Origin: a virus
DNA: 57,109 bases
Virus record (IMG/VR): IMGVR_UViG_3300029113_000006
Span: 1-57,109 of that record
Reading direction: 5' to 3' (one strand)
Part shown: positions 44,600 through 57,109 of the stretch, piece after piece
Numbering within the stretch: position 1 is the first letter of the stretch
How the letters are laid out: each line of letters opens with the position of its first letter
Notes under the pieces: model-generated
Databases searched by the model: none
What the model was told of the DNA's origin: nothing
The model's input: the letters and a program-made list of their open reading frames with translations, nothing else
Position numbers and translations under genes: made by a program

Positions 44600-45160
44600 T
44601 TAAAATGGCAAATCTTCACTGTCCTGAATTACGGCAAAGTCGCCGGTATCAGGCGAAGAACCAGACCCACCAGCCAGCGTTTTCTTCGGTCTGACCTCAT
44701 AGTCACCGGAACGAATCTTGTCAACACTGGTGAAACGGTCAACGACAAGCTTCGTCTTGATGTTCCCATCGTTACCCATGTATTCTTCCTCACGGAGAAC
44801 CACACCGACCAGCTTGCCACGCAGGGTCTTTTCATCGTTATTGAACTTATAACCGGGATTGGACTGCTCCACAGCGGTGATAAAGCCCTTGAAGAACGGC
44901 AGTGCCTTTTCCTTATAGCTCTTGATGGTCTTGCCGCCCCATGCCCACTCGCCCGGATTCAGCTTGCCACGCTCGATAAGGGAAGCGGTCTGCTCGCGCC
45001 AGTATCCCTTGAACTCGCCCTCTGCGACTTCCCACTCGATGTTCAGACGCTCCTTTGCGGATTCGTCCGTTGCCTTGCAGATACCGGCAACATAGCCGCC
45101 AACAGGCAAGTCACGGCGCTCGGTAGCTTCCTGTACGTCATTCCAGTTGATGTTCTTCAT
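44600..45160 (-). CDS. DUF669-like protein (partner of Sak4-type recombinases)
   Basis: Position next to the ATPase; MKNINWNDVQEA...GGYVAGI... Confidence 0.55.
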   Translation of the reverse strand: MKNINWNDVQEATERRDLPVGGYVAGICKATDESAKERLNIEWEVAEGEFKGYWREQTASLIERGKLNPGEWAWGGKTIKSYKEKALPFFKGFITAVEQSNPGYKFNNDEKTLRGKLVGVVLREEEYMGNDGNIKTKLVVDRFTSVDKIRSGDYEVRPKKTLAGGSGSSPDTGDFAVIQDSEDLPF

Positions 45161-45163
45161 CTG

Positions 45164-45796
45164 TTACTCTCCTTTGTTATCCGGCTGAACCGGGATGTTG
45201 TAATACTCACGGATGGTCTTGTCTACGACTGCGAGGTCGTTCTCGATCAGCGCATCGTTGAACATCCCCAAAGGGGTTTTCACGGTGTCCATCCCATCAT
45301 TGCGAGTGCTGAACAGGTATCGCCCATCCTGCACAACAGTTTTCAGAACGATGGTGAAGTACCCTTCCACGCAGACCTTTTCGTCCAACATTTTTCCGAC
45401 AGTTTTGAATTTGTCTCCACCATTTTCTCCGCATTCGCTGTGCCCGAAAAAGTAGACCACCACATCGTCCGGCAGCTCCTTCGCCCGCATCAGCAGGGCG
45501 TTGAAGTTGGCTGCCATGTCGGTGAACTTCTGGTATCCGGCGACCTTTGCGTTCCGCATGAACTCGCCGGTCATAAGGTAGGTGGCATCATCAATGACGA
45601 TGGACTTACGCTTGGTGCTGTGGATTGCGACATCAATCTTGCCGTAATCATTGGTAATGTACGTTTTCATGCTGCTTCGGAACGGCAGCGGCTTGCCAAG
45701 CACGTTGATAACCGCTACCTGTTCCGGGTCAAAGTTCCGAAGCGAAGCGGATTTTCCGCTGCCGGAATGACCATAGACCATTACTAATACTGCCAT
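45164..45796 (-). CDS. AAA/RecA-like ATPase (Sak4-like recombination protein)
   Basis: VMVYGHSGSGKS Walker A; about 210 aa. Confidence 0.7.
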   Translation of the reverse strand: MAVLVMVYGHSGSGKSASLRNFDPEQVAVINVLGKPLPFRSSMKTYITNDYGKIDVAIHSTKRKSIVIDDATYLMTGEFMRNAKVAGYQKFTDMAANFNALLMRAKELPDDVVVYFFGHSECGENGGDKFKTVGKMLDEKVCVEGYFTIVLKTVVQDGRYLFSTRNDGMDTVKTPLGMFNDALIENDLAVVDKTIREYYNIPVQPDNKGE

Positions 45797-45865
45797 TTTT
45801 CTTTCCTTTCTTCGGCTTTATTAGGCTTCATTGTTCTTACTTTGGCTTAATACGGCTGTACAAAA

Positions 45866-46060
45866 TCAACCAGCCATCAGTTCTGCCAACTGTGCACGGA
45901 GGTCTTTCAGCTCCGCTTCTCTGTCCTCAATCTCAGACTGCAAGTCCTCAATCGCTGCCAGCCGGTCAGCTTTTTTGGCTTCTGTCATCTGCTCGTTGGT
46001 CATAAAGTACACGCCGTCCTCCGGCTCTGTCACGCCACCGAATCTGTCAAGGTTAATCAT
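45866..46060 (-). CDS. 64-aa coiled-coil protein
   Basis: Start ATG 46060 after GAGGGAG. Confidence 0.4.
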   Translation of the reverse strand: MINLDRFGGVTEPEDGVYFMTNEQMTEAKKADRLAAIEDLQSEIEDREAELKDLRAQLAELMAG

Positions 46061-46247
46061 CTTTTGGTCTCCCTCTCTTGCGCTCCTCTTTGATTTGCAG
46101 TGCGCTGTACCACTGGTCTTTGTCAATCTCGATGGTAGACCACCGATGGTTACAGACAAGACACTTTTTTCTGCGAACGATACTGTCGTGGTCAGACCGG
46201 CTGTCAACCGTTGTAATGTTGTCACTACCGCACATCGGGCACTTCAT
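46053..46247 (-). CDS. NrdR-like zinc-ribbon protein lacking an ATP-cone
   Basis: MKCPMCGSDNITTVDSRSDHDSIVRRKKCLVCNHRWSTIE. Confidence 0.5.
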   Translation of the reverse strand: MKCPMCGSDNITTVDSRSDHDSIVRRKKCLVCNHRWSTIEIDKDQWYSALQIKEERKRGRPKDD

Positions 46248-46507
46248 CAAGCATCCCTCCACTCGTTCGTGTGGTTGGCAACACGCTTGATTTTCCGGGG
46301 CTCGCGTTCACTGCGTTCTTCCTCTTCGGCGCTAACAGCCAGCGCACACAGAACGATAGCCGTTGCCAGCAGACCGCAAGATACAATCACCCAGCCGAAC
46401 ATCTGCGCGGTGGTCTGACAGCCCTGAATCGTGTCACCGCACCCGACTGCTGCAATTGCCACGACAAGACCGATCATGGACAATGCTGTTCCTTTCAAAG
46501 TTTTCAT
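46247..46507 (-). CDS. Membrane protein
   Basis: Two hydrophobic segments. Confidence 0.45.
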   Translation of the reverse strand: MKTLKGTALSMIGLVVAIAAVGCGDTIQGCQTTAQMFGWVIVSCGLLATAIVLCALAVSAEEEERSEREPRKIKRVANHTNEWRDA

Positions 46508-46704
46508 TGGTTCTCCTTTTTGCTGCCAAAATTAAAAATCCATCCGGTTGCCATTACAGCGGCTGCCACAATGATTCCCCATGTACCTTTTGCTCCGACC
46601 AGTAGCTCAACAAGATGTACCAGCCACAGGTTCAAAAGGAACGCTGCAAGAATCAACGCCAGAACGATGCCCCAGATCAGGGCGATTTCCACGAAAATTT
46701 TCAT
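46504..46704 (-). CDS. Membrane protein
   Basis: Two hydrophobic segments. Confidence 0.45.
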   Translation of the reverse strand: MKIFVEIALIWGIVLALILAAFLLNLWLVHLVELLVGAKGTWGIIVAAAVMATGWIFNFGSKKENQ

Positions 46705-46781
46705 CTTTATCCTTTCTTCGAATGCGTTCCAGCCGTTCTTTCTCCCGGCTGTGCCATCTGATTTCTCGTTTGCCGTAGTAC

Positions 46782-47054
46782 TTACCGTTCATAGGTCAGC
46801 TCTCCTGACGCAAGCATCCGTGATACTTCGCCGTAGTGTTTGCCGAGCTTGTCAGCAAGCGCTTGAACTTCTCCGATAGACGGAAACGTCTTTTCTAGCT
46901 TCTTTTTTCCTTTCTGTTTGATTTTGCGCGCTGCCTTCTTGCGCTCCCTGTTACGCTCTTTGTCAACCTTGCGCTTGCATTCTGAACAGTACTTTCTTGT
47001 CGGTCTGACAACGCCAAGATACAGACCGCAGCGCTCACAGTACTTTTCTTCCAT
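46782..47054 (-). CDS. Zinc-ribbon / basic protein
   Basis: CERCG...CSECK. Confidence 0.5.
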   Translation of the reverse strand: MEEKYCERCGLYLGVVRPTRKYCSECKRKVDKERNRERKKAARKIKQKGKKKLEKTFPSIGEVQALADKLGKHYGEVSRMLASGELTYER

Positions 47055-47216
47055 GCTGCATCTCCTCTTTCAGTCTGGTTTCCCGATTGTGGCGTTCAAA
47101 GCACTGGTTGATAGATTTCTCCATCCACAGCACCTTGTTGGCATCGTTTCGTGACACGCCAGCTGCCATCGCCAGCTTCAGTCTGCGCTTGCGGCTTTGC
47201 GCCCTGCGAAAATTCG

Positions 47217-47609
47217 TCACCAGCACTCACCAGCCTTTTTGATGATGAACGCAGGCACGTCTTCGCCGGTAGTCCGGCACAGGCAGACACACTTGGCAAC
47301 CCAAGTATCAAAAGAAGCAGAAGGGATGCAGCACGTTGCATTTCTCTTAAAGCTTTCATTATCCGGTTTACTAAGCCAAACAGAAAGCGCCTTGTAGTCA
47401 TACGCTTCCGTGACTCTGCACCATTCGATGCTATACCCATCCAAACACAGTCGGTTCATAATACGCATTGCCGTAAGCTTTGCGCTGGCGAGTTCCGCTG
47501 CTGTCCACTTGAGTTTGTCCGCTTCGTAGGCCTTGACCGCCTCGTCAATGGCAAACTTCGCATCGTCCGGGCGCTCTAGGTCTACCTTTAAGGTGATAAT
47601 CTGTTCCAT
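47217..47609 (-). CDS. Hypothetical 130-aa protein
   Basis: ORF track. Confidence 0.5.
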   Translation of the reverse strand: MEQIITLKVDLERPDDAKFAIDEAVKAYEADKLKWTAAELASAKLTAMRIMNRLCLDGYSIEWCRVTEAYDYKALSVWLSKPDNESFKRNATCCIPSASFDTWVAKCVCLCRTTGEDVPAFIIKKAGECW

Positions 47610-47611
47610 GT

Positions 47612-48361
47612 TCAGTCCTCCGCTTTCTGGATTTTCTTTGCTTTCAAGAAGAGGTTTACGAAGTAGACTTGGCCGCGACCGGAAATCTTAGGAGTGCGGT
47701 TAATGGAAATGTGGTCGCTGTGTTGAATCGTGGTCTCTTTGATTTCAAACAGCCCCATCTCCATACTACGCTGCGTAGGCAAGTTGTAGTCGCTTCGTTT
47801 CGGGTCTTTAATGAGGTAGCCGTTCTTTCGCATCCAGTCGAACAAACGGTTCTGTCCGATGTTAATGCCATTTTGCGAAAGCAGCTTTGCAAGCTCACCA
47901 ACGAGAATGGATTTTTTGCTTGCTGAAACTGCGTCAGCGAAAAGCGCTTTCGGCTTCATGGTTTCAATCTGCTTGTCCTTCTCTTCCAGCTCTTCGTGCG
48001 CTGCGATCAGCGCAGTTGCAAGGAGATGCGAGCGGGTGAGCTGCGGCTGTTCTGTCAGTTTCTTTTCCATTTCGTTGAACGCTGCAATGTACTTGAGCTT
48101 CCACTCAAGAGCAGCCTTGCCGGTAAAGCCCATAGCCAGCAGGGTGAAACCGTCACGGTTCATCAGGTAAGCCCTCTGTTCCCTGCCGTAGCTGTCCGGC
48201 GCTGTGGTTTCAAAGAACATCTCCCCAAAATTGGGGACATCTTTTTTGATTGCATCGATGTCACGCATCACATGATCGTGACGCTTTTCAAAGTTCTCGG
48301 CAATCTGGCGGCTGGATGCTACCGGTTCGCCGCTTTGCATAGATAAGACAATGTCGCTCAT
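47612..48361 (-). CDS. Rha-family regulator fused to a KilAC-type antirepressor domain
   Basis: SSRQIAENFEKRHDHVMRDID... (Rha) and a C-terminal KilAC-like region. Confidence 0.7.
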   Translation of the reverse strand: MSDIVLSMQSGEPVASSRQIAENFEKRHDHVMRDIDAIKKDVPNFGEMFFETTAPDSYGREQRAYLMNRDGFTLLAMGFTGKAALEWKLKYIAAFNEMEKKLTEQPQLTRSHLLATALIAAHEELEEKDKQIETMKPKALFADAVSASKKSILVGELAKLLSQNGINIGQNRLFDWMRKNGYLIKDPKRSDYNLPTQRSMEMGLFEIKETTIQHSDHISINRTPKISGRGQVYFVNLFLKAKKIQKAED

Positions 48362-48555
48362 TTTCCCTCTCTTTCATTCAACAGCTCTTCCAGAGCTTCT
48401 CTCACCTTAGCTTCCGCATTTTTAGGCTCACGCTTACCGTTCAGGATTTTTCCCAAGTATTCCGGTGCGCATCCCATTTTTGCAGCAAGCTCTCTGATTT
48501 CGATGTTGTTAACGTGAAGCGTTCCCACAACATCGCCTGTCCACTTAGGAAGCAA
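48358..48555 (-). CDS. Cro-like HTH regulator, first gene of the early operon
   Basis: TTG start after AAAGGAG; divergent from the CI-like gene. Confidence 0.6.
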   Translation of the reverse strand: MLPKWTGDVVGTLHVNNIEIRELAAKMGCAPEYLGKILNGKREPKNAEAKVREALEELLNEREGK

Positions 48556-48572
48556 ATTTTTTCTCCTTTCTT

Positions 48573-48750
48573 GTTCTAGTACTTGAACTTTTTGAAAGAA
48601 TATGATAATATTATGGTGTCAAGCAAAAACATTATCGAACGTTCTTCTATTTGTTCAAAGCCTTTAATTTGTTCTACCGATTGAACTCGGTATCTTTATT
48701 AAAGCACAAGTGGTAGAACTTTTCAAGTGTTTTTGTTCAAGTGGTAGAAC
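48573..48750. promoter_or_regulatory. Genetic-switch region with four 16-bp operators GTTCTAnnnnTTGAAC
   Basis: 48573-88 GTTCTAGTACTTGAAC; 48671-86 GTTCTACCGATTGAAC; 48704-19 and 48735-50 inverted (..CAAGTGGTAGAAC); plus-strand promoter TTGAAC-17-TAATAT at 48583-48611. Confidence 0.6.
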
Positions 48751-48785
48751 TTTGTCATCTTGTACAAGCACTGGGGGTAAGTTTT

Positions 48786-49121
48786 GTGTTTTTTGACAAT
48801 TTCGTAAAACTATGCGAAGAAAAGGGAGTAAAGCCGTCTCGTGCTTTAACCGATGCAGGCGTTCCAAGATCTGCTTATAGCTATTGGAGAAGGGAAGCTG
48901 GCATCGGGAACGATGCAAAGCCGACAAACCAAAACGCCGTAAAGCTTGCTCAGTACTTTGACGTTACTGTGGATTACCTTCTCACTGGCGACCGAAAAGA
49001 AAACCCGCCTCAGCAGCCGCAAAGTGAAGTCGATGCAGCAGTGGAGCGGATTAGAAGAAAACTTGAATCTATGCCGACAGCGCAGCGTGAAGCGCTGATG
49101 AACCTGATCGAGAAGATGTGA
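48786..49121 (+). CDS. CI-like XRE-family repressor
   Basis: GTG 48786 is preferred because operator 4 covers the ORF-track start; ...SYWRREAG...AVKLAQYFDVTVDYLLTG. Confidence 0.65.
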   Translation: MFFDNFVKLCEEKGVKPSRALTDAGVPRSAYSYWRREAGIGNDAKPTNQNAVKLAQYFDVTVDYLLTGDRKENPPQQPQSEVDAAVERIRRKLESMPTAQREALMNLIEKM

Positions 49122-49274
49122 GGTAAGATTTTGTATTACTTGTTGTGCGGCTGTGCCTTTTGCTTTTGGTTCATGCAGGCCTTGTTAAAAGGCAATGACC
49201 GTGTACTATATGGAAACGGCAGAAAATATCGTTACCGTAAAAGAAAGAATCACTGGTTTTAAGCGAGGTGGAAG

Positions 49275-49748
49275 ATGAAAAAACACAGCAAAGAAGAGCT
49301 TCTTAACGATAAGAGCAGCCGCATGGGTGCAAGGTTTATGTACTCATTCGGAATGGCTTTCATTGTGTTTTCCTTTCTTCTCCTGATGTATTCAACCACT
49401 GCCTTTATCATTTGTATGGCGGTTGGTCTGTTTTTGTTCTTTAAGGGAAAAAAGGAATACAATCTTTTTCTGGAGAAAAATAAGCTAAAGCAGAAAATGC
49501 ACAAAACGCCTGTAAAAGCAAAGATTGTCGCTTCTGGGGTTAGTAAGAAAGCAGGAAGCGCTGCTGTTCGTACAGCGGTCGGCGGTGCTGTTGGTGGGCT
49601 TCCCGGAGCCATTTATGGCTCTGCTACTGCAAAATCTAAAGCCGACGTGACGTTCTATGTTACCTACGAGGACGGGCACAAGGCATCCGAAACCGTAAGC
49701 GTAAATTCTTCTAGGTTCAATGAGCTAATGAAAGTCTGTGAAGATTAA
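49275..49748 (+). CDS. Membrane protein co-transcribed with the repressor (exclusion candidate)
   Basis: Two TM helices; Gly/Ala-rich segment. Confidence 0.55.
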   Translation: MKKHSKEELLNDKSSRMGARFMYSFGMAFIVFSFLLLMYSTTAFIICMAVGLFLFFKGKKEYNLFLEKNKLKQKMHKTPVKAKIVASGVSKKAGSAAVRTAVGGAVGGLPGAIYGSATAKSKADVTFYVTYEDGHKASETVSVNSSRFNELMKVCED

Positions 49749-49762
49749 CCCGGTAAAATAAA

Positions 49763-49806
49763 AACCCCTTGTGCCGGGCTGGTGTAGCTCTGGGCAAGGG
49801 GTTTTC
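49763..49806. terminator. Bidirectional terminator
   Basis: AACCCCTTG...CAAGGGGTTTT. Confidence 0.7.
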
Positions 49807-49808
49807 TG

Positions 49809-49910
49809 TTATTCCAGGTCTAAGACTTGCTCCGCTACCGGAATCTTTTCAGGATGTTCTAGTAGCCATGCGATAAACCTGTCAATCTTAGCTCTTTCTT
49901 GTTCGCTCAT
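49809..49910 (-). CDS. 33-aa protein (below ORF-track cutoff)
   Basis: GGGAGGA RBS; MSEQERAKIDRFIAWLLEHPEKIPVAEQVLDLE; own promoter. Confidence 0.4.
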   Translation of the reverse strand: MSEQERAKIDRFIAWLLEHPEKIPVAEQVLDLE

Positions 49911-49957
49911 TGTAGCATATCCTCCCGATCAGTAAATACGAATGTTCATTTGATACG

Positions 49958-49985
49958 ATTATACATCTTCCAGTTGTACAGTCAA
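49958..49985 (-). promoter_or_regulatory. Promoter TTGACT-16-TATAAT
   Basis: Reverse complement of 49958..49985. Confidence 0.5.
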
Positions 49986-50101
49986 TACAATTTGAACAAC
50001 TTCGCAAAAATCGAACGTTTTCTTTGCATCCGTTACTTTGCATCGGGAAAGCCACGAGCGTTCAAGTCAAAAGGGACAACGCCTATCCATCTTTCCTCCA
50101 A

Positions 50102-50308
50102 TCACAGCTCTACGAGCTGCCCGTCAATGCGTTCGATGTTATCTGCCGGGTCGCGCCCATCGTCTAAAGCGGCTACGGCACGTTCTAGGATGCCTTTCAC
50201 TTCGAGGTAAGCATCTTTATCAGCTTCGTACCTAGAAAGGCTCAGGACAAGCTCCAGCGTCCGTCTACGAGCGTATGGAATAATCAGAGCATCTACGGTT
50301 CGGTTCAT
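50102..50308 (-). CDS. Hypothetical 68-aa protein
   Basis: ATG 50308 after GGAGG. Confidence 0.45.
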   Translation of the reverse strand: MNRTVDALIIPYARRRTLELVLSLSRYEADKDAYLEVKGILERAVAALDDGRDPADNIERIDGQLVEL

Positions 50309-50418
50309 TAGCTTTCCTCCCATGGTTCAGGTGTGTGTGGCTGCCCATCGGTAACGCTGGCAGGCATTCCATCGATGATTGGCATACGTTCATGGTTCCA
50401 GATTACAGTTTCTTTCAT
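50308..50418 (-). CDS. 36-aa protein
   Basis: MKETVIWNHERMPIIDG...; the stop overlaps the next start. Confidence 0.3.
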   Translation of the reverse strand: MKETVIWNHERMPIIDGMPASVTDGQPHTPEPWEES

Positions 50419-50560
50419 TTTGTGTTTCCTTTCTATTTGGAATTTTTTGACAATACAGTTATAACACAAGCTGCTGTTGGTTCTCCATAGCAGCTTTTTC
50501 CATTTTTTGGCTTGTCGAATCCGGCAGTTTTGCAGAATTTTGTTGAAAGGGCGTGAATTT

Positions 50561-51154
50561 ATGGATGAATATTTGGTAAGAACGGCCAAAGCATTAGAGA
50601 TGGCACGGATGCGTTCCGGCTTGAGCCAGCAGAAGTTGGCGGCAAAGATGGGTGTAAATCGTGGCACGATAGCAAATTGGGAGCAAGGTCTGGCAGCCAT
50701 CTCCCTGCCGATGGCTATGCGCTGGTTCACCTGCTGCGGCGTATCAGTGGCTCGATACATGGACGCTTGCGTTCATCCGGGACTACTTGAGCACCTTGAG
50801 GATGACCTTTCCGATTTGGAGAAACGGAAAATTCTCATAGATGCTATGATGGAGTGCTCCTCCTATGAGATAGATGCCTTACTGTACATCCGGTACGGTG
50901 ATCACGGTTCAGACCACATCGGTGTGTTGACGGAGATTCTGGCAAATCTTCACACGCCGTTGAAGGACAGGGTCGCTGTCTGCCGGATGGTGTCTGGTAG
51001 CTATGAGATGGCACAGGCTACCGGAACAGACCCAGACCCGAACGGAACCGCCCCAAAGATGGAAATTCTCTATCAGGCGCAGGATGCTGGAACGGAAGCT
51101 GCTATGAAGTCCAACGATTCCTATACTGTGAATCCAAATAATATAAGCGGCTGA
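50561..51154 (+). CDS. XRE-family HTH regulator with C-terminal domain, upstream of the plasmid-type origin
   Basis: SGLSQQKLAAKMGVNRGTIANWEQG. Confidence 0.65.
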   Translation: MDEYLVRTAKALEMARMRSGLSQQKLAAKMGVNRGTIANWEQGLAAISLPMAMRWFTCCGVSVARYMDACVHPGLLEHLEDDLSDLEKRKILIDAMMECSSYEIDALLYIRYGDHGSDHIGVLTEILANLHTPLKDRVAVCRMVSGSYEMAQATGTDPDPNGTAPKMEILYQAQDAGTEAAMKSNDSYTVNPNNISG

Positions 51155-51196
51155 TTGTCGAATTATCGAAGTTTTTGAGGTATACAGGGGGACGCG

Positions 51197-51740
51197 CTCC
51201 ACTTTTTGTACACAATAGACCTGTTATAAATATAGTTTTAGGTTGTCATTTTGTCCCCCATAGAATCGTAAATGGTGGATTTTTGCGGATGTAATTAACG
51301 GACTTTCGTAAAATTTTAGTTCATCAAAGAGTGACTTGTCAATTCGTCCCCTATTGGTGTAATTGCACTCCATTTTCTGTACACGATAGAACCGTCAGGT
51401 AGATTATAGGGCTTGATGGACGTTTCTTATTCAGCAAAAGATCAGCAAAAGAAGTTGTCGTTTTCCACAATCTGCCCGTTGAAGAGAAGAAATTGTTGAA
51501 AATGTATCGTCGCCACTATTTGATGATGATTATTTATCTCTTGTTTATCTCTTGTTTATATATATAGTAAGAACGTGTACAAAAAGTGGAGCATTGTGTA
51601 CATAAAGTGGAGTAACGTGTACAAGAAGTGGATGGTATCGTGTACAAAAAGTGGAGTAACGTGTACAGAATGTGGAAGTCGATTGTTGAAAAATAATTGT
51701 GTACAGAATCATTGACGTGTACACGATACAGTGGTATAAT
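51197..51740. repeat. Iteron origin: 5 direct 17-bp iterons (21-23 bp phasing), 2 degenerate copies, 2 inverted distal copies, AT-rich 11-bp tandem repeat
   Basis: GTGTACAAAAAGTGGAG at 51575 and 51640, variants at 51596, 51617, 51661, 51699, 51717; inverted at 51197 and 51368; TTATCTCTTGT x2 at 51534-55. Confidence 0.85.
51712..51740 (+). promoter_or_regulatory. rep promoter TTGACG-17-TATAAT overlapped by the last iteron
   Basis: Read directly. Confidence 0.55.
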
Positions 51741-51765
51741 AGGGTGGAAGAAATGAGGTGATGCA

Positions 51766-52860
51766 ATGCCAGAATTGACAGGAAACAACCTTGTCGAAAA
51801 GAGCAAGGCATTGGTTTGGGCGAAGTTTACGGACTACACAGCAGGCGAGCTTCGGCTGCTTGAGGTCTATCTGAGCCGTATCAATCCGAGAGACCCCGAA
51901 AGCTCCAACGTGTCGTTTACGCTGGCTGAATATTGCAAGCTGCTGGATTTGAAGCTCAATTCAAAGAACTTGAAGTCTCAGGTTAAGCACTTTTTGGGCA
52001 ACGTGGTTTCAGTGCCATTGAATGCAGATGGAACAGAATATGTGATGTATCCGCTGTTCACAAAGGCAGAGGTCAAATTCAATCGAGAATCCTTGTCCTA
52101 TGACGTTTCAATCAACTGTAATCCTGACTTGCGGCCTGTGTTTTTCGACATTGCAAGAAGCGGTTACGTCAAATACCGTCTGCGCTATACGATTGGGATG
52201 AAGCAGCAAGCATCTATTCTGATGTACAGCATGATTCGAGATTGGATGAATCGCTCTCTAACATCGAACAAGATTGGTTTGAAGCAGTTGCGTGACCACT
52301 TGGGGGCAAACGATGCAAGTTATGACGACTTCCGAGCTTTACGCCGCAGAGTTCTTGAACCAGCAGTGGAAGAGATCAGCAATGTTTCAGACATTGTCGT
52401 TGACTTTGAAAAGATTTGCACAGGGCGAAAGGTAGTAGCAGTTGAGTTCCGATTCGGGTACAAATCCAAGCAGCCCGTCATAGATGCCGATTCTAGCGAG
52501 GTTGATTGTGAGACGGCTAATTCCAAGCCGGAAATCAAAAAAGCTGCCAGAAAGCCCCGCACAAGCGGATACGAAGGGTACGACTGGTCTGTGTGCGATG
52601 CGCTGTCGGTTCAAGAGTGTATCGAGGTCGCAAAGGTAGTTGAGGTAAAGATGATGGAAGAGCATCCATCTATTAAGCTACCAAAGCGGAGAGATGCAGT
52701 CTACGACATTGTAAAGGCCGCGTGTGCAGATATTCTTTCAATCAACCGTGACCCTTGGCCTGACCATCCGAAGCGGTATCTGATTGGTAGCTTGAAGAAA
52801 GACGGCGCGATTGAAGAGTATCTTCCGGCATTTTATGAGATTGACGCACTGCAAAAGTAA
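51766..52860 (+). CDS. Plasmid-type replication initiator (Rep_3/RepB-like winged-helix family)
   Basis: NNLVEKSKALVWAKF..AGELRLLEVYLSRI... N-terminal pattern; iterons immediately upstream. Confidence 0.7.
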   Translation: MPELTGNNLVEKSKALVWAKFTDYTAGELRLLEVYLSRINPRDPESSNVSFTLAEYCKLLDLKLNSKNLKSQVKHFLGNVVSVPLNADGTEYVMYPLFTKAEVKFNRESLSYDVSINCNPDLRPVFFDIARSGYVKYRLRYTIGMKQQASILMYSMIRDWMNRSLTSNKIGLKQLRDHLGANDASYDDFRALRRRVLEPAVEEISNVSDIVVDFEKICTGRKVVAVEFRFGYKSKQPVIDADSSEVDCETANSKPEIKKAARKPRTSGYEGYDWSVCDALSVQECIEVAKVVEVKMMEEHPSIKLPKRRDAVYDIVKAACADILSINRDPWPDHPKRYLIGSLKKDGAIEEYLPAFYEIDALQK

Positions 52861-52893
52861 TCAGACATAGAAAATAAAAGAAAGAGTGATAAA

Positions 52894-53673
52894 ATGGCAA
52901 AAATTATAGCTGTCGCCAACCAGAAGGGCGGCACAGGAAAGACTACCACAAGCACCTGTCTGGCTGGTGCGTTGCAGTTGCTTGGCAAGAAAGTCCTGCT
53001 GGTGGACTGCGATGCCCAGTGCAACGCAACGGACACTTACGGCGCACAGACAGAGGATGTATGTACCCTGTTTGATGTGATGACCCGGCAGGGTACGGTA
53101 GAGGAAGGAATCCAGCACTGTGAAGCGGGTGACATTCTGCCGTCTGACAACGCATTGAAGGACATTGACGAGCAGCTTGTCCGGGACATGGGCAAGAACT
53201 TCCGGCTGCGAGAAGCTCTTGAAAGCGTGTCTGAGCAGTACGATTACATTGTGCTGGACACTCCCCCGCAGCTTGGTCTTGCGCTTGTGAACGCACTGAT
53301 CGCCGCCAACAGCATCATTGTGCCCATCACAGCAGACCGATACGCACTGGCTGGTTTGAGCCAGCTTTCGCAGACCATCGGCGATGTTCGCAGATATTTC
53401 AATCCGACTTTGAAGATTGAAGGTCTGCTTCTGAACCAGTACAAGAGCCGTGAGAACTTGTCCAAAGAGGTTGTGGAGCAGCTTCCTGTGATTGCACAGA
53501 GCATGGGAACAACCCTGCTGGATGTGAAGATTAGACCGTCTATGGGCGTTCGTAAGGCACAGGCAGAGCGCCACAGCCTGTTTAGTGGCGACACGGCAAA
53601 GAGTACCAGCGCAGAGGATTTCAAGGCTTTGGCGAAGATGATTGTGGAGGGTGACAACAATGAGAATGATTGA
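52894..53673 (+). CDS. parA: ParA/Soj-family partition ATPase
   Basis: Deviant Walker A: IAVANQKGGTGKTT. Confidence 0.9.
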   Translation: MAKIIAVANQKGGTGKTTTSTCLAGALQLLGKKVLLVDCDAQCNATDTYGAQTEDVCTLFDVMTRQGTVEEGIQHCEAGDILPSDNALKDIDEQLVRDMGKNFRLREALESVSEQYDYIVLDTPPQLGLALVNALIAANSIIVPITADRYALAGLSQLSQTIGDVRRYFNPTLKIEGLLLNQYKSRENLSKEVVEQLPVIAQSMGTTLLDVKIRPSMGVRKAQAERHSLFSGDTAKSTSAEDFKALAKMIVEGDNNEND

Positions 53674-53926
53674 TAAAGAAGCACTGCTAGAAAGGCTTGA
53701 TTTGTTTATTTGCGAGTATGACAGAATGGATCAAGAAGAAGCGATAGAAGCAATAAGAACCGTGATTAAAGCCGTCAAAATGATGCCAGAAACCCGGCAC
53801 TCAAAGTGGGTTAGAACAAAAAACTTGATTATATCTTACAAATGTTCTATTTGCGGATATGAAACAGAAGTTGCACAAATGAGATATTGCCCGAACTGTG
53901 GCGCACGGATGGAGAATGTGAAATGA
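53660..53926 (+). CDS. Zinc-ribbon protein
   Basis: CSICG...CPNCG. Confidence 0.45.
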   Translation: MRMIDKEALLERLDLFICEYDRMDQEEAIEAIRTVIKAVKMMPETRHSKWVRTKNLIISYKCSICGYETEVAQMRYCPNCGARMENVK

Positions 53927-54495
53927 AATCAACCAGCAAAAAATCCACAGGTTTGCTTGGCGGGTTTGATTTTCAGCCTATTTTTTCGGAACAGCAATTA
54001 AGCCGAAGTGAGCCAAAGGAAGAAGAAGTAAGCCAAACAAAGCCGAATAATGCCGAACGAGAGTTAATTAAGCCTAGTGATGCCAGAGACAGCCATGCAC
54101 AGCCGAGTGAAGCAGAATTAAGCAGTATTAAGCCGAAGCAAGCCAAAGACAGCGAAACACAGCCGAACAATGCCATAGTCAGCGAAAGTAAGCCAAAGAA
54201 GTTGAAACAGGCGAAAGAAGTTCAACGTCTTATCGAACAAGGCAATGTTCCCGGCGCACTAGCCGAAGCTGGTCTGACAAAGAAAAAAATCCCGATGCCG
54301 GAATCGCATCAAGGTGTTGCAAGTGGCGATGGCAAGCGTTCAAAGCGCATTACCATCCTTATGAGCGAGGAAGAGCGCAAGTACATCAACCGTGAAGCCA
54401 GACGGCATGGAATGACGATTGGACAGTTCGTGTACGCTCTGGCAGTTGCGGCGGCAGAGGGAAAGATTGAGTTGGAGGATTTCTTGGAGGATTGA
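53923..54495 (+). CDS. Repeat-rich protein with a C-terminal ribbon-helix-helix (ParG/omega-like centromere-binding candidate)
   Basis: KRITILMSEEERKYINREARRHGMTIGQFVYAL. Confidence 0.5.
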   Translation: MKSTSKKSTGLLGGFDFQPIFSEQQLSRSEPKEEEVSQTKPNNAERELIKPSDARDSHAQPSEAELSSIKPKQAKDSETQPNNAIVSESKPKKLKQAKEVQRLIEQGNVPGALAEAGLTKKKIPMPESHQGVASGDGKRSKRITILMSEEERKYINREARRHGMTIGQFVYALAVAAAEGKIELEDFLED

Positions 54496-54498
54496 CGT

Positions 54499-54996
54499 AT
54501 GATTGCTTATAGACCTTGTCGTGGTTCGTTGAAAAACGCTCTAAAAGAAACAAGAGTGTTTCGCAACGAATACCAAATGAAGCAGAGAATCGCAAATGAA
54601 TGGAACCTAACCTGTGGAAGAAAAGAATTGAATCCAGATAATATCATAATTTCACAAAACGAATATTCTGATTACAAGAGCGGGTGGCAGAGAGTTCGCG
54701 ATGTTTACATTACGAAAATCGGAAGTAGGAGCCTTATTGATGAGTTAGGAGCGGTACAATGCATTGGATATTGTTCGTATGATATTTCAAACGCCCCTAA
54801 AATTGGACAGTGGATAAACGTAAAGAACGAGATGCCAGACGAATATAATCCATACGTTATCGGATTTAGCCAAGACGAGTTTGACGTTGAGATTGTTGGA
54901 TACGAGCAGGATTTTGGCGAGTGGCGAGATAAAAGCGGAAAACCGCACAATGTTACATATTGGATGCCATTGCCTGAACCGCCTGTAAAATATTGA
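54499..54996 (+). CDS. DUF551-like C-terminal domain protein
   Basis: ...VTYWMPLPEPP. Confidence 0.5.
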   Translation: MIAYRPCRGSLKNALKETRVFRNEYQMKQRIANEWNLTCGRKELNPDNIIISQNEYSDYKSGWQRVRDVYITKIGSRSLIDELGAVQCIGYCSYDISNAPKIGQWINVKNEMPDEYNPYVIGFSQDEFDVEIVGYEQDFGEWRDKSGKPHNVTYWMPLPEPPVKY

Positions 54997-55015
54997 AATA
55001 ACAAAGGGGCAATAT

Positions 55016-55246
55016 ATGGAAAATTTCTATTGGGTCAAAATCCAGTACGATGATGACAAAAAATGCAGACACTTTCAAGCTCCGTTCGTGTTGTTTGCGA
55101 ACAGCAAAGAGGAAGCAAAAGCAAGAATTGAGAGAGAAGTTCCCGGCAAGTTTTCCATTGTCAGTGTGGTAGAACTCGACAAGAGCCTTGTAATCACTCC
55201 GCAAGATTTGTTTGACATGAGGTCAAAATCAACACTTTGGGAATGA
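55016..55246 (+). CDS. Hypothetical 76-aa protein
   Basis: ORF track plus RBS. Confidence 0.5.
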   Translation: MENFYWVKIQYDDDKKCRHFQAPFVLFANSKEEAKARIEREVPGKFSIVSVVELDKSLVITPQDLFDMRSKSTLWE

Positions 55247-55256
55247 GGAAAAGATT

Positions 55257-55670
55257 ATGCGCACATACAAGACACACAAGCGCAGGAGCAAAGAGGAGCA
55301 AGCTAAAATCGACGCAGAGGTAGCAAAACGGAAAGCGAAGCTGGCTGAAAAGTACAATACTGACACGCAGTATTACAAGGGTATTCCTGTTGAGCTGATT
55401 GTAAGAGAGGACTACGGTTGCTACAAAGCAAAGCGTTTCAAAATCAACGGTAGTAATCAAAACGTGTGGATTCCAAACTGCTATCTTGAAGATGACGGAA
55501 CAATTAAGACAAATATGAACATTGATTTTGTATTTCGTAAGTCTGTAAACCAGTTAAATAAAGCGGGAATCACGCAAGCGATTATTGGTATCAAACGTAA
55601 AATGCCGGAAGAAGATGTGCCAAATCTTAAAAGCACTATGCAAAAAATCGGAGATACCGGAACTTGCTAA
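55257..55670 (+). CDS. Hypothetical 137-aa basic protein
   Basis: ORF track plus RBS. Confidence 0.5.
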   Translation: MRTYKTHKRRSKEEQAKIDAEVAKRKAKLAEKYNTDTQYYKGIPVELIVREDYGCYKAKRFKINGSNQNVWIPNCYLEDDGTIKTNMNIDFVFRKSVNQLNKAGITQAIIGIKRKMPEEDVPNLKSTMQKIGDTGTC

Positions 55671-55676
55671 AGAACA

Positions 55677-55712
55677 AACCCCTGTGCAACCAATCAAGGC
55701 TGTACAGGGGTT
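55677..55712. terminator. Bidirectional terminator between convergent operons
   Basis: AACCCCTGT...ACAGGGGTT. Confidence 0.65.
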
Positions 55713-55717
55713 CTGTT

Positions 55718-56356
55718 TTACTTATCAGCAATGCAATCCCAGTAGAGATACGCCTTACCATCTGCGGCATCTGCGTCCTCAAGGAACGCCTTTGCCATGT
55801 CAGCGTAGAAGCCCGGGGTGTCAACGGACTGGCGCTTTGCGACCTGACAATAATCCGAGTACATCATGTTCATAACAGCCCAGAAATCGTTCGGGTCACA
55901 AGTGATATTACGCTGTTTGGCAACGTCCTGCGTCTGTTCCAGCGTCCAGTGACAGCCTTTCGTACCGTCAGCATTTACCATGCTGTCGCACCATTCCTCT
56001 GCTTCATCGTGGGTGAGGTGCTGGCGTGGCATCTTGATGGAGCGGCTGTCCGCACCGCCATGTTCGTACTGCCCAGACCGCTTGTCCCAGTCTCCGTTCT
56101 GCGAAAAGCCAATTTGCGGCATTCTGCGCCCATTCTCTACGTCAGGGTAGCGGGGGATAGGGTAGGGGTCAATGTAGCGGTTCTCCTCCTGCGGATAGTA
56201 AGGATGGCGGTCATTGCCGTTTTCCAGCTTACGCAGACGGCGTTCCAGCTCACGTTCCCTGCGGTCACGCTCTTCCTCAAGGCGGTCACGTTCCGGCTCA
56301 CGGTCTTTGTCGTGTTCACGGAGCATCATCATGCGGCGAAAATTGTTCTTGCCCAT
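55718..56356 (-). CDS. 212-aa protein with a hyper-charged R/E/D plus Tyr/Pro-rich N-half and a globular C-half (operon gene 5)
   Basis: AGGAGG RBS; ...DREPERDRLEEERDRRERELERRLRKL... Confidence 0.6.
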   Translation of the reverse strand: MGKNNFRRMMMLREHDKDREPERDRLEEERDRRERELERRLRKLENGNDRHPYYPQEENRYIDPYPIPRYPDVENGRRMPQIGFSQNGDWDKRSGQYEHGGADSRSIKMPRQHLTHDEAEEWCDSMVNADGTKGCHWTLEQTQDVAKQRNITCDPNDFWAVMNMMYSDYCQVAKRQSVDTPGFYADMAKAFLEDADAADGKAYLYWDCIADK

Positions 56357-56369
56357 AATCTATACCTCC

Positions 56370-56741
56370 TCAAGAAATGGACGCAGGCGCACCGGCGTGG
56401 GAGCGGCAGAAGCAGCCAAGATACTTGAACGTGCCGGTGCCGGTTGCGGACGTTGCCACACGGGTAGCGTAGCGGGTGCGGGTGTGGATACTCTCGGCGG
56501 TCGCCTGAGCGCAGTTGCAGTCGGTCAGAGGGTATGCGGTCGTGCCTGCACCGATGGTGATGACCACAGGTGCGTTGATGGTAGTCGTGTCCGGCAAGCT
56601 CTGGGCAACGACAATGCAATACTTTTCGCCGTTCTGGTATGCGCCAGCAGGGATGTTGATGGTCAGAGTATCGTCGGCAAACGTGACTGCCTGACTGATG
56701 ACCAAGTGCGGGCAGAGTTTGCAGCTTGTTTTGCAAGCCAT
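56370..56741 (-). CDS. 123-aa Cys-rich protein (operon gene 4)
   Basis: MACKTSCKLCPH...CNC...CFC; AGGAGG RBS. Confidence 0.6.
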   Translation of the reverse strand: MACKTSCKLCPHLVISQAVTFADDTLTINIPAGAYQNGEKYCIVVAQSLPDTTTINAPVVITIGAGTTAYPLTDCNCAQATAESIHTRTRYATRVATSATGTGTFKYLGCFCRSHAGAPASIS

Positions 56742-56753
56742 AGTGTTTTCCTC

Positions 56754-56791
56754 CTAAAAAATCAGGGGCAGAGGTGTCTTACCCCTGCCCC
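56754..56791 (-). terminator. Intra-operon intrinsic terminator or attenuator between genes 3 and 4
   Basis: GGGGCAG...CTGCCCC followed by a T6 run on the minus strand. Confidence 0.5.
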
Positions 56792-56826
56792 GATGGTTCA
56801 CCCGGTGTTATCGGGGAGTGTGTAGG

Positions 56827-57109
56827 TTAGCAGCCGCAGCAGTTCACGCCCACGTTGGGGTTTGCCACCTGATAAGCGGGAATCGGACGAGGATTGACCC
56901 GGTTCAGGATGGTATCGGTCTGCTGGGACATCACGGTGGTCAGAAGCGCATTCTGACGATCCTGAGAAGCGGCGAACTTCAGGCTCTGGTTCTCAGCGGT
57001 CAGAGTGGCAATCTTATCCTGCGTGAAGTAGTCCATCATGCTGCGGAAGTTGGCGTTGCAGTTGTCCACGATGGCACGAGCGTTGTCTGCGATAGCCTGA
57101 CGGGTAGCG
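56827..57109 (-). CDS. C-terminal part of the junction-spanning 289-aa CDS (same gene as 1..686; 57011-57109 duplicates 1-99)
   Basis: ORF 56827..57069 stays open upstream to the window end; ends ...NPNVGVNCCGC. Confidence 0.7.
   Translation of the reverse strand, partial: ATRQAIADNARAIVDNCNANFRSMMDYFTQDKIATLTAENQSLKFAASQDRQNALLTTVMSQQTDTILNRVNPRPIPAYQVANPNVGVNCCGC

What the first reader, a model, noticed from the sequence alone, without database searches (positions are those of the whole stretch)
55718..57109. Five-gene operon of low-complexity, Cys-rich and membrane proteins unlike any standard phage module (continues at 1..1578)
The transcription order is 1578->1063, 1060->809, 686->1/57010->56827, 56741->56370 and 56356->55718. 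The products are:
- a P/Q/Y-rich protein of 171 aa;
- a Q/N/L-rich protein of 83 aa;
- a 289-aa protein with a Gly/Asn-rich tiny-TM N-terminus plus CCC and CCGC motifs;
- a 123-aa protein starting MACKTSCKLC;
- a 212-aa protein whose N-half is almost pure R/E/D with Tyr/Pro motifs.

The operon has its own structured leader, an internal attenuator (56754-56791) and a terminal terminator. It lies outside the late operon. The compositions recall spore-coat or envelope-assembly proteins of Clostridia rather than virion, lysis or replication proteins. I recall similar uncharacterised proteins in Clostridia genomes but cannot name a family. It may be a lysogenic-conversion or self-assembling surface system.
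Basis: partly seen in the sequence, partly recalled or inferred. Interest (0 to 1): 0.75.

Follow-up and report, generated by a model that had tools for sequence, protein, structure and literature searches.

The report
Conserved orphan membrane cassette in gut phages
The five odd-looking genes are real and belong to a gene cassette of unknown function, kept in the same order in many gut phages between the lysis genes and the lysogeny genes; none of its proteins resembles anything studied, so it is a good lead, not a solved system.

Summary
The window is a circular 57,010-bp phage-plasmid with a 99-bp end overlap. The five minus-strand genes (171, 83, 289, 123 and 212 aa) are as described. Each has a Shine-Dalgarno site, and four of them gave pN/pS of 0.07-0.09 over 48-69 relatives (P1 gave one usable pair).

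They form their own transcription unit:
- a terminator, an extended -10 promoter and a ~480-nt leader holding an Rfam DUF3800-VIII hairpin;
- a hairpin with a U-run between genes 3 and 4;
- a terminal hairpin.

In 78 diverse loci the order small HTH - P1 - (P2) - P3 - P4 - P5 is kept. P4 and P5 each come in two unrelated forms. Endolysin and holin genes are common upstream, and integrase or ImmA-like genes downstream. P3, P5 and a gene in the P4 position also occur in a crAss-like phage and a Bacteroides phage.

Only P5 has a Pfam match (DUF7841). Searches of NCBIfam, PADLOC and PDB found nothing significant.

The spore-coat analogy, an Ena-like fibre, a lysis enzyme and a spanin are not supported. 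The best reading is an independently transcribed accessory cassette that builds a membrane-tethered, cysteine-rich complex on the cytoplasmic side. Its function is unknown; superinfection exclusion or envelope modification is my leading guess.

The parts
2171..2404 (-). Small sigma-70 region-4 / GerE-type HTH protein (about 77 aa; the start codon is uncertain). It is the first recurring member of the cassette and lies upstream of the terminator.
   Evidence: Pfam Sigma70_r4_2 E = 0.0019. NCBIfam sigma70-ECF E = 0.0013. It matches the HTH family profile built from related loci at E = 3e-15. An HTH gene precedes P1 in about 50 of the 78 loci. pN/pS 0.31.
2090..2121 (-). Intrinsic terminator that closes the upstream (late/HTH) transcription unit.
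   Evidence: 14-bp stem followed by a T-run. Folds at -22.3 kcal/mol, z -5.7.
2065..2073 (-). Extended -10 promoter element TGGTATAAT, the likely start of the cassette transcript (leader of about 480 nt).
   Evidence: Read directly from the sequence. The consensus scan did not list it because the -35 hexamer is weak. Its activity is inferred, not shown.
1764..1827 (-). DUF3800-VIII RNA motif: a long hairpin flanked by an A-run and U7, in the leader.
   Evidence: Rfam RF03075, 70.4 bits against a gathering score of 40.2, full length. The 81-nt stretch 1835..1755 around it folds at -41.9 kcal/mol, z -7.3. It was not found in 10 divergent related loci, so it is specific to this lineage and is not a core part of the cassette.
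1662..1695 (-). Second leader hairpin, followed by UUUUCUUUU (terminator- or attenuator-like).
   Evidence: Folds at -19.7 kcal/mol, z -5.2.
1063..1578 (-). P1, 171 aa: P/Q/Y-rich disordered N-terminus, a small conserved domain, and a C-terminal helix.
   Evidence: ORF with an AAGGAGG ribosome-binding site. phrog_21718 E = 1e-9, the same family as the Butyrivibrio virus Ceridwen gene at 1e-29. Present in 70 of 78 loci.
809..1060 (-). P2, 83 aa: Q/N/L-rich helical protein with a C-terminal ...AKERGIDLNQL... motif. Its start lies 3 nt after the P1 stop, so the two may be translationally coupled.
   Evidence: ORF with a Shine-Dalgarno site. Detected in 44 of 78 loci, with a median P1-P2 gap of -4 nt. 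pN/pS 0.07.
1..686 (-). P3, the 5' two-thirds of the gene (it continues across the circular junction).
   Evidence: Join shown. Window bases 1-99 duplicate 57011-57109.
56827..57109 (-). P3, the 3' part. The whole protein is 289 aa: an acidic Gly/Asn-rich N-tail, one transmembrane helix, two long helices, an invariant CCC, and a PxPAYxVxNP...CGC-type tail.
   Evidence: phrog_16490 E = 4e-40. More than 7,470 relatives, none with a Pfam domain or a name. 2,504 clusters at 50% identity. The AF2 model has long helices at 85-145 and 151-267, but mean pLDDT is only 47. The transmembrane helix is present in 77 of the 78 representative P3 ORFs. pN/pS 0.09.
56765..56791 (-). Hairpin with U6 between P3 and P4 (internal attenuator or partial terminator).
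   Evidence: 11-bp stem with 8 GC pairs and a T-run. The 85-nt P3-P4 intergenic stretch folds at -31.7 kcal/mol, z -3.3. A hairpin with a T-run recurs in 32 of 61 P3-P4 gaps against 7 of 41 P2-P3 gaps.
56370..56741 (-). P4, 123 aa: all-beta protein with 8 cysteines and an N-terminal CxxxCxxC.
   Evidence: 1,670 relatives, the top 120 at 63% identity or more. C7, C10, C42 and C77 are invariant. AF2 gives a beta fold of eight strands at pLDDT 67. No PDB match. BFVD matches are to uncharacterised phage proteins, with weak matches to the C-terminal domains of tail-fibre proteins.
55718..56356 (-). P5, 212 aa: R/E/D/Y/P-rich disordered N-half plus a DUF7841 C-terminal domain. Its start is 14 nt after the P4 stop.
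   Evidence: Pfam DUF7841 E = 5e-26. In crAss-like phages the homologue lies next to the P3 homologue. pN/pS 0.08.
55673..55717 (-). Terminal hairpin directly after the P5 stop codon, shared with the convergent plus-strand gene 55257..55670.
   Evidence: Folds at -26 kcal/mol, z -3.5. The U-run is weak, so it is a hairpin or possibly a bidirectional terminator.

Best explanation
This is a self-contained accessory cassette carried by temperate and some virulent phages of gut bacteria. It is transcribed separately from the late operon, in the way 'morons' are.

Its recurring members are a small sigma-region-4/GerE-type HTH, P1, P2, P3, P4 and P5.

Inferred mechanism:
- P3 inserts in the cytoplasmic membrane through its single N-terminal helix. 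Its short acidic Gly/Asn-rich tail faces outside.
- Its roughly 230-aa helical, cysteine-rich domain faces the cytoplasm and probably oligomerises as a coiled coil.
- That domain acts as a tether for the cysteine-rich beta protein P4. Contact could be through thiol or metal-mediated bonds involving the invariant CCC and the CGC-type tail.
- The low-complexity partners also attach: P1 (P/Q/Y-rich), P2 (Q/N-rich) and P5 (R/D/E/Y-rich plus DUF7841).
- The hairpin with a U-run between P3 and P4 would make P1-P3 more abundant than P4-P5.

The complex would act at the membrane of the infected or lysogenic cell. It is not part of the virion and not a lysis enzyme. My leading guess for its role is blocking superinfection or otherwise modifying the cell envelope.

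Shown: gene reality, operon structure, conserved synteny, genomic position, absence of known homologues.
Inferred: topology, complex formation, function.
For: Real genes:
- Shine-Dalgarno sites before all five.
- pN/pS 0.07-0.09 for P2-P5 over 48-69 pairs; one pair for P1.

Own transcription unit:
- Terminator, extended -10 promoter, structured leader, internal hairpin with a U-run, terminal hairpin.

Conserved order HTH-P1-(P2)-P3-P4-P5 in 78 loci with P3 below 80% identity:
- P1 in 70; P4a in 33 or P4b in 40; P5a in 20 or P5b in 51.
- Gap pattern: P1/P2 and P4/P5 abut or overlap. HTH-P1 and P3-P4 are spaced and enriched for a hairpin with a T-run.

Position and distribution:
- Endolysin and holin Pfam families are the commonest hits among the two ORFs upstream: Amidase_2 7, PG_binding_1 5, Phage_holin_4_1 4, Phage_holin_5_2 2, CHAP 4 of 137 ORFs.
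- Integrase, ImmA-like (Peptidase_M78) and Rha/Bro families are common downstream.
- The cassette lies next to recombination genes in C. perfringens phage XP41-N3, and P3 does so in Bacteroides phage C3_41T2LP. It was never seen inside a head or tail module.
- It occurs in phages assigned to Clostridia, Negativicutes and Bacteroidales hosts, and in crAss-like phages.

Topology and partners:
- The P3 transmembrane helix is near-universal. Its N-flank has 213 D/E against 36 K/R.
- The P1, P2, P4 and P5 sequences I read show no N-terminal hydrophobic leader.
- Cysteines are invariant in P3 and in both P4 types.
- A crAss-like protein carries DUF7841 and also aligns structurally with the P4 model. 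This is weak evidence linking P4 and P5 (rank 19, E = 0.013).
Against: - There is no experimental or homology-based evidence for any function.
- Topology rests only on charge bias and the absence of export signals.
- The P3 model is poor (pLDDT 47), and no multimer modelling was possible.
- Known superinfection-exclusion systems are one or two proteins, not five or six.
- The cassette also sits in apparently virulent phages, so it need not be a lysogeny-expressed moron.
- P4a is the most conserved member, which fits a structural polymer as well as it fits a tethered partner.
- The promoter was read by eye and not tested.
Confidence: 0.4

Rival explanations
1. Virion accessory fibre. P3 would be a trimeric coiled-coil shaft and P4 a separately encoded distal knob, with P1, P2 and P5 acting as assembly chaperones. 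The fibre would be added to heads or tails late in infection.
For: - P3 is predicted as long helices and is N/Q-rich like trimeric fibre stalks.
- Other annotators labelled homologues 'viral fiber' or 'spike protein'.
- The P4 model weakly resembles the C-terminal domains of predicted tail-fibre and receptor-binding proteins in BFVD (E 3e-4 to 1e-2, TM about 0.45).
- The cassette follows the late genes on the same strand.
Against: - P3 has a near-universal, strongly hydrophobic transmembrane helix.
- The cassette is never inside a head or tail module. In XP41-N3 it lies next to recombination genes, as does P3 in C3_41T2LP.
- A terminator and its own promoter separate it from the late operon.
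- P4a is the most conserved member (63% identity or more over the top 120 hits), the opposite of a receptor-binding tip.
- The PDB fold search found no fibre domain.
Confidence: 0.15
2. Lysis accessory or regulator. The cassette would be a membrane complex that times or completes host lysis, for example as an antiholin-like regulator or an envelope-disruption factor working with the neighbouring holin and endolysin.
For: - Holin and endolysin families are the commonest hits immediately upstream, as in crAss-like cr1_1 and Ceridwen.
- BhlA-like small membrane ORFs are inserted in the cassette in L073 and XP41-N3 (identified by eye only).
- P3 is a single-pass membrane protein.
Against: - The window already has a full holin and GH25 endolysin pair.
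- No cassette protein hits a holin, spanin or hydrolase family.
- The window cassette is a separate transcription unit behind a terminator.
- The same cassette serves phages of monoderm and diderm hosts, unlike spanins.
- Five conserved proteins with long disordered regions are not typical of lysis control.
Confidence: 0.15
3. Self-assembling cysteine-rich, low-complexity material. The proteins would form a condensate or a redox-crosslinked matrix. Tyr/Gln-rich P1 and Arg/Asp/Tyr-rich P5 would co-assemble on the P3 scaffold. The material would organise phage processes at the membrane, or embed released particles once thiols oxidise outside the anaerobic gut.
For: - Compositions: P1 is Q/P/G/Y-rich, P5 is R/E/D/Y-rich, and P3 and P4 hold 10 and 8 Cys, including runs of two or three adjacent cysteines (CC, CCC) and a CGC-type tail.
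- The disordered regions are kept across both P5 types.
- All 80 genome hits come from gut or rumen bacteria.
- Unrelated proteins can replace P4 and P5, which suggests that bulk properties matter more than a specific fold.
Against: - This is inferred purely from composition.
- Strong purifying selection acts on the whole proteins, and P4a is tightly conserved, which points to specific folds and contacts.
- No precedent is known in tailed phages of this size.
Confidence: 0.1
4. One reading: spore-coat or exosporium-like proteins of Clostridia that convert the spore or cell surface of the lysogen.
For: - Cys-rich and Q-rich compositions recall CotY/ExsY/CdeC and GerQ. A collagen-like protein is encoded nearby (5073..3052).
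- Many carriers are assigned to spore-forming Clostridia.
- The cassette sits in the usual moron position.
Against: - No Pfam or NCBIfam hit to any coat or exosporium family.
- P4 does not match Ena or any other solved structure, and the P4b profile finds nothing in PDB, BclA included.
- P3, DUF7841 proteins and a gene in the P4 position occur in crAss-like and Bacteroides phages, whose hosts do not sporulate.
- No sporulation-type promoter was looked for or seen.
Confidence: 0.05

Closest known systems
Phage 'morons' and lysogenic-conversion cassettes (for example HK97 gp15, or the toxin genes between the lysis module and the attachment site in Staphylococcus and Streptococcus prophages)
   Same: It occupies the same position between the lysis and lysogeny modules. 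It has its own promoter-like element and flanking terminators. It is mosaic and can be exchanged between unrelated phages. It encodes a membrane protein.
   Different: It has five or six co-conserved genes instead of one or two. It shows no homology to any characterised moron. Parts of it also occur in crAss-like and apparently virulent phages, next to recombination genes in two of them.
Membrane-anchored superinfection-exclusion proteins (T4 Imm/Sp, lactococcal Sie2009, TP-J34 Ltp, HK97 gp15)
   Same: P3 is a single-pass membrane protein, phage-encoded and non-structural, in an accessory locus. These comparisons rest on my knowledge of those systems, not on a test made here.
   Different: There is no sequence or fold similarity. 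Those systems are single small proteins. Here a long Cys-rich helical domain comes with four soluble partners.
N-terminally anchored cytoplasmic coiled-coil organisers (phi29 p16.7, bacterial EzrA)
   Same: The architecture inferred for P3 is the same: a short outside tail, one transmembrane helix and a long cytoplasmic helical domain that recruits partners at the membrane.
   Different: There is no homology (PDB profile search). P3 has invariant cysteine clusters and a Gly/Asn-rich tail that those proteins lack. The topology is not proven.
Bacillus cereus endospore appendage subunits (Ena, DUF3992) and exosporium proteins (BclA, ExsY/CotY)
   Same: P4 is a small beta protein of about 120 aa with an N-terminal cysteine cluster. 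Cys-rich partners and a collagen-like gene lie nearby.
   Different: No Pfam DUF3992 or BclA hit. No Foldseek match to solved structures. The cassette also occurs in phages of non-sporulating hosts.
Pfam DUF7841
   Same: The C-terminal half of P5 is a clear member (E = 5e-26). The crAss-like homologue scores 1.7e-39.
   Different: The family has no known function, and a full-text search found no paper mentioning it. Here it is fused to an R/E/D/Y-rich disordered region. In most related cassettes the unrelated P5b family takes its place.
Rfam DUF3800-VIII RNA (Weinberg et al. 2017, PMC5737381)
   Same: Full-length match, with all but the outermost base pair standard, well above the gathering score.
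   Different: The motif was defined by its association with DUF3800 genes. None was found among about 45 window proteins scanned. Here it sits in the leader of an unrelated operon and looks like a terminator hairpin. It is absent from 10 divergent cassettes.

Membership tests
Moron-type autonomous accessory unit | Own promoter and terminator(s), separate from the neighbouring operon | tested here: met
   Upstream terminator 2121..2090, extended -10 at 2073..2065, terminal hairpin 55717..55673. Promoter activity itself was not tested.
Moron-type autonomous accessory unit | Located between conserved modules (lysis and lysogeny) and present or absent independently of them | tested here: met
   Lysis families are the commonest hits upstream, and integrase, ImmA-like and Rha families are common downstream. 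The cassette occurs in unrelated phage backbones, including crAss-like phages.
Moron-type autonomous accessory unit | Expressed from the prophage | not testable with these tools
   Needs RNA-seq or proteomics of lysogens.
Ena / DUF3992 endospore appendage subunit | DUF3992 jellyroll domain detectable by profile or by fold | tested here: not met
   No Pfam hit. No PDB sequence hit. The best Foldseek E-value against PDB was 0.28, and none of the 50 matches listed is an Ena structure. The model's pLDDT is only 67, so this negative is moderate, not absolute.
Spore coat / exosporium proteins (CotY/ExsY, CdeC, GerQ, BclA) | Sequence membership in the families, and restriction to spore-formers | tested here: not met
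   No Pfam or NCBIfam hits. The P4b profile finds nothing in PDB. Homologues occur in crAss-like and Bacteroides phages.
Holin / endolysin lysis cassette | A holin family or peptidoglycan hydrolase domain, and being the phage's only such genes | tested here: not met
   No such domains in P1-P5. A separate GH25 endolysin and Holin_LLH-type holin lie at 6600..5077.
Spanins | A diderm host, and an inner-membrane spanin paired with a lipoprotein outer-membrane spanin (lipobox) | tested here: not met
   I saw no lipobox-type signal in the partner sequences I read. The window uses strong Shine-Dalgarno sites, typical of Bacillota. The same cassette is found in Butyrivibrio and C. perfringens phages.
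Known anti-phage defence systems (PADLOC) | A match to a defence-system protein model | tested here: not met
   No hit below E = 0.004, and none credible.
Pfam DUF7841 | Score above the Pfam gathering threshold | tested here: met
   91.7 bits against a cut-off of 25.2, covering P5 residues 109-202.
Rfam DUF3800-VIII | Covariance-model score above the gathering threshold | tested here: met
   70.4 bits against 40.2, model positions 1-64 of 64.
Rfam DUF3800-VIII | Association with a DUF3800 gene | tested here: not met
   No DUF3800 domain among the window proteins scanned. Not every ORF was scanned.
Virion structural protein | Encoded in a head or tail module and present in particles | tested here: inconclusive
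   The gene position argues against it. Presence in particles cannot be tested here.

The most novel reading that the evidence does not exclude
The cassette builds a new kind of phage-made cellular structure. A membrane-tethered coiled-coil scaffold (P3) would carry thiol or metal-linked beta subunits (P4). Around it, Tyr/Gln-rich (P1) and Arg/Asp/Tyr-rich (P5) disordered proteins would co-assemble into a condensate or a redox-hardening matrix. This would be a trait of phages of gut anaerobes across bacterial phyla, and it could affect superinfection, virion assembly sites or particle survival outside the gut.
Probability: 0.12. Interest if true: 0.85.

Novelty: categorically new. Interest (0 to 1): 0.62.

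Why it matters
P3 alone has 2,504 clusters at 50% identity (E up to 0.001) in a library of 1.84 billion representatives. The cassette is carried by very abundant human-gut phage-plasmids: about 70 near-identical IMG/VR genomes. It is also carried by prophages assigned to Lachnospiraceae, Oscillospiraceae, Ruminococcus and Blautia, and parts of it by crAss-like phages.

A five-to-six-gene module kept in one order across such different phages, under strong purifying selection and with no characterised relative, probably performs a common and unrecognised task in phage-host biology in the gut.

Three cultured carriers make it directly testable: Butyrivibrio virus Ceridwen, C. perfringens phage XP41-N3 and Bacteroides phage C3_41T2LP.

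If the function turns out to be ordinary, such as an exclusion system or an assembly aid, the result would still annotate thousands of 'hypothetical' gut-phage genes.

Tried and rejected
- Lysis cassette. I first suspected this from the position after the tail genes. I rejected it once the GH25 endolysin and holin were found at 6600..5077.
- Ena-like (DUF3992) fibre subunit for P4. I predicted the structure (pLDDT 67). Foldseek against PDB gave nothing (best E = 0.28), and the profile search of PDB gave nothing.
- BclA/C1q-like knob for the alternative P4b family. This was an impression by eye. There were no Pfam, NCBIfam or PDB profile hits.
- P4a and P4b as distant homologues. hhalign gave probability 0.5%, so they are unrelated replacements.
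- P2 fused to the N-terminus of P3 in Bacteroides phages. This was another impression by eye. The P2 profile does not match those N-termini.
- A conserved RNA in the long HTH-P1 spacer across loci. The nucleotide similarity among 43 leaders came, in the loci I inspected, from a protein gene: the ~125-aa family with a D-C...H...D motif. The DUF3800-VIII hairpin is absent from 10 divergent loci.
- Known defence systems: no PADLOC hits.
- PDB profile searches for P1, P3, P5a, P5b and the 125-aa family returned only coiled-coil noise.
- The P3 structure model is too poor (pLDDT 47) for a fold search, so none was run.
- Literature searches for DUF7841 and for DUF3800-VIII returned no papers.
- The search with the DUF7841 domain returned only close relatives and no informative fusions.
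Full report
**1. What is in the sequence**

The first 99 bases of the window repeat at its end, so the genome is a 57,010-bp circle.
- P1: 1578..1063, 171 aa.
- P2: 1060..809, 83 aa.
- P3: 686..1 joined to 57010..56827, 289 aa.
- P4: 56741..56370, 123 aa.
- P5: 56356..55718, 212 aa.

The described compositions are correct:
- P1 residues 1-66 are Q 20%, P 17%, G 14%.
- P3 residues 1-70 are G 29% and N 11%, with one hydrophobic helix. P3 has 10 Cys, including CCC and a C-terminal CCGC.
- P4 has 8 Cys and starts MACKTSCKLC.
- P5 residues 1-105 are R 19%, E 13%, D 10%.

Each ORF has an AGGAG-type ribosome-binding site 6-9 nt upstream. Against close relatives, pN/pS is 0.07-0.09 at pS 0.24-0.36 for P2-P5 over 48-69 pairs each. 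P1 gave one ungapped pair with the same value. These are real genes under strong purifying selection.

**2. Transcription signals**

- A strong terminator (2121..2090; -22.3 kcal/mol, z -5.7) follows a small sigma-region-4-type HTH gene (2404..2171).
- It overlaps an extended -10 element, TGGTATAAT (2073..2065).
- The roughly 480-nt leader holds a 64-nt hairpin that matches Rfam DUF3800-VIII over its full length (70.4 bits against a threshold of 40.2). The surrounding 81 nt fold at -41.9 kcal/mol, z -7.3. The hairpin is flanked by an A-run and U7. A second hairpin with a U-run follows.
- Between P3 and P4 lies an 11-bp GC-rich hairpin followed by U6 (56791..56765).
- A hairpin (-26 kcal/mol) abuts the P5 stop codon and faces a convergent gene.

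**3. Genome context**

The phage has the following on the minus strand, from about 26 kb down to 3 kb:
- an ordinary late operon;
- its own GH25 endolysin (6600..5782) and holin (5412..5077);
- a collagen-repeat protein (5073..3052).

On the other side of the cassette lie Rep3, ParA, a NikA-like protein and DUF551. Elsewhere there are DnaB, a C5 methylase, Rha/ANT and a serine resolvase. This is a phage-plasmid-type genome. The five genes are therefore neither the lysis cassette nor part of a head or tail module.

**4. Homology**

- Only P5 has a Pfam domain: DUF7841, E = 5e-26.
- PHROGs places P3 in phrog_16490 and P1 in phrog_21718, both of unknown function.
- NCBIfam, PADLOC and phmmer or profile searches of all PDB sequences gave nothing significant for any member.
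- P3 has more than 7,470 relatives with no name and no Pfam domain. It has 2,504 clusters at 50% identity. All are stand-alone proteins of about 130-340 aa.
- P4 has 1,670 relatives. The top 120 are at least 63% identical.

**5. Structure**

- P4 was modelled at pLDDT 67 as an all-beta fold.
- It matched nothing in PDB (best E = 0.28).
- In BFVD it matched uncharacterised phage proteins. It weakly matched the C-terminal domains of predicted tail-fibre proteins. It also matched a crAss-like protein that carries DUF7841.
- P3 was modelled poorly (pLDDT 47), as one transmembrane helix plus two long helices.

**6. Comparative genomics: the main result**

tblastn showed P3 and P5 homologues side by side in crAss-like phages, and P3 homologues in Butyrivibrio virus Ceridwen, C. 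perfringens phage XP41-N3 and Bacteroides phage C3_41T2LP.

I collected 168 loci from IMG/VR, GTDB genomes and GenBank phages. I reduced the first 162 to 78 whose P3 proteins share less than 80% identity. I then built iterative profiles for each neighbouring gene. The order HTH - P1 - (P2) - P3 - P4 - P5 recurs throughout:
- P1 in 70 of 78 loci.
- P2 in 44.
- P4 in one of two forms: P4a in 33, P4b in 40. The two are unrelated by hhalign.
- P5 in one of two forms: P5a (DUF7841) in 20, P5b in 51.
- About half of the loci add a ~125-aa protein with invariant D-C...H...D residues.

Spacing is conserved too:
- P1/P2 and P4/P5 abut or overlap.
- The HTH-P1 gap has a median of 480 nt. It holds a hairpin with a T-run in 41 of 49 loci.
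- The P3-P4 gap has a median of 88 nt. It holds a hairpin with a T-run in 32 of 61 loci, against 7 of 41 for P2-P3 gaps (p = 4e-4).

Among the two ORFs upstream of the cassette, the commonest Pfam families are endolysin and holin families. Downstream they are integrase, ImmA-like metallopeptidase, Rha, Bro and HTH_3. That is the position where temperate phages of Gram-positive hosts usually carry lysogenic-conversion genes. In XP41-N3 the cassette sits next to recombination genes, as does P3 in C3_41T2LP.

**7. Host**

- All 80 genome hits are from gut or rumen bacteria. Most are Clostridia. A few bins are Bacteroidales, Negativicutes or Bacilli.
- The closest bin to this phage is labelled 'Clostridiales bacterium' (L083).
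- A 91%-identical DUF7841 domain is labelled Segatella hominis in RefSeq.
- The pervasive Shine-Dalgarno sites favour a Bacillota host.

**8. Interpretation**

The data show an autonomous, widely shared accessory cassette.

That it acts as a membrane-tethered cytoplasmic complex is an inference, drawn from four points:
- the near-universal P3 transmembrane helix;
- its acidic N-flank, with 213 D/E against 36 K/R;
- the absence of an evident export signal on the partner sequences I read;
- the invariant cysteines in P3 and in both P4 types.

Function remains unknown. I rank the possibilities in this order:
1. a cell-membrane role such as superinfection exclusion or envelope modification;
2. virion fibre, equal with lysis accessory;
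3. a self-assembling matrix;
4. the spore-coat analogy, which the crAss-like and Bacteroides phage occurrences and the negative family tests argue against.

**9. Limits**

- There are no expression or proteomic data and no multimer modelling.
- The P3 model is poor.
- The promoter was read by eye.
- MAG host labels are unreliable.
- The hairpin counts use a crude detector with an internal control only.

Noticed in passing
window 51766-54996 (+), with 35101..33878, 44259..42856, 48361..47612 and 26084..25419 (-): The genome looks like a phage-plasmid. It has Rep3 initiator, ParA, NikA-like RHH and DUF551 genes beside a full tailed-phage gene set, plus DnaB, a C5 cytosine methylase, Rha/ANT and a serine resolvase. 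No tyrosine integrase was seen.
   Followed up: partly
window 30745-30795 (+): Rfam RAGATH-5 (a ribozyme-class candidate RNA) matches at 60.3 bits against a threshold of 50.
   Followed up: no
window 1764-1827 (-): A DUF3800-VIII RNA motif sits in the cassette leader, but no DUF3800 gene was found among the window proteins scanned. It looks like a terminator hairpin flanked by an A-run and a U-run. It is absent from 10 divergent cassettes.
   Followed up: partly
window 5073..3052 and 686..56827; proteins P0054 and P0068: Public proteins join the N-terminus of the collagen-like protein to the C-terminal half of P3. They are either natural ~4.4-kb deletion variants that remove HTH, leader, P1 and P2, or assembly chimeras.
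   Followed up: no
window 55718-56356; P0255 (WP_440486375.1); locus L083: Host assignments conflict. A 91%-identical DUF7841 domain is labelled Segatella hominis in RefSeq, while the nearest genome bin is 'Clostridiales bacterium' and the window uses strong Shine-Dalgarno sites throughout.
   Followed up: partly
L002 3713-4090 and 35 other loci (for example L095 2743-3117): A ~125-aa protein family with invariant D-C, R, A, H and D residues, arranged like a papain or transglutaminase triad, accompanies the cassette in 36 of 78 loci. It mostly lies between HTH and P1. It has no Pfam or PDB hit and is absent from this window.
   Followed up: partly
L073 10729-10950; L168 5785-5985: Small membrane plus coiled-coil ORFs that look BhlA-like are inserted inside the cassette in two phages. 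The resemblance was judged by eye only and was not tested against Pfam.
   Followed up: no
L167 7699-7932 and 7994-8395 (Bacteroides phage C3_41T2LP): In this Bacteroides phage an R/D/E/Y-rich peptide (78 aa) and a weak DUF7841-like domain (E = 4e-4) are separate adjacent genes. In the window's P5 they form one protein.
   Followed up: partly
window 2349-2588 (-) against 2171-2404 (-): The HTH ORF has no good start codon or ribosome-binding site, and it overlaps a 79-aa ORF in another frame by 56 nt. This could be a frameshift, a mis-called start or a sequencing error.
   Followed up: no
window 22500-22577 (-): A tRNA-Met gene lies inside the late region, between the terminase and portal genes.
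   Followed up: no
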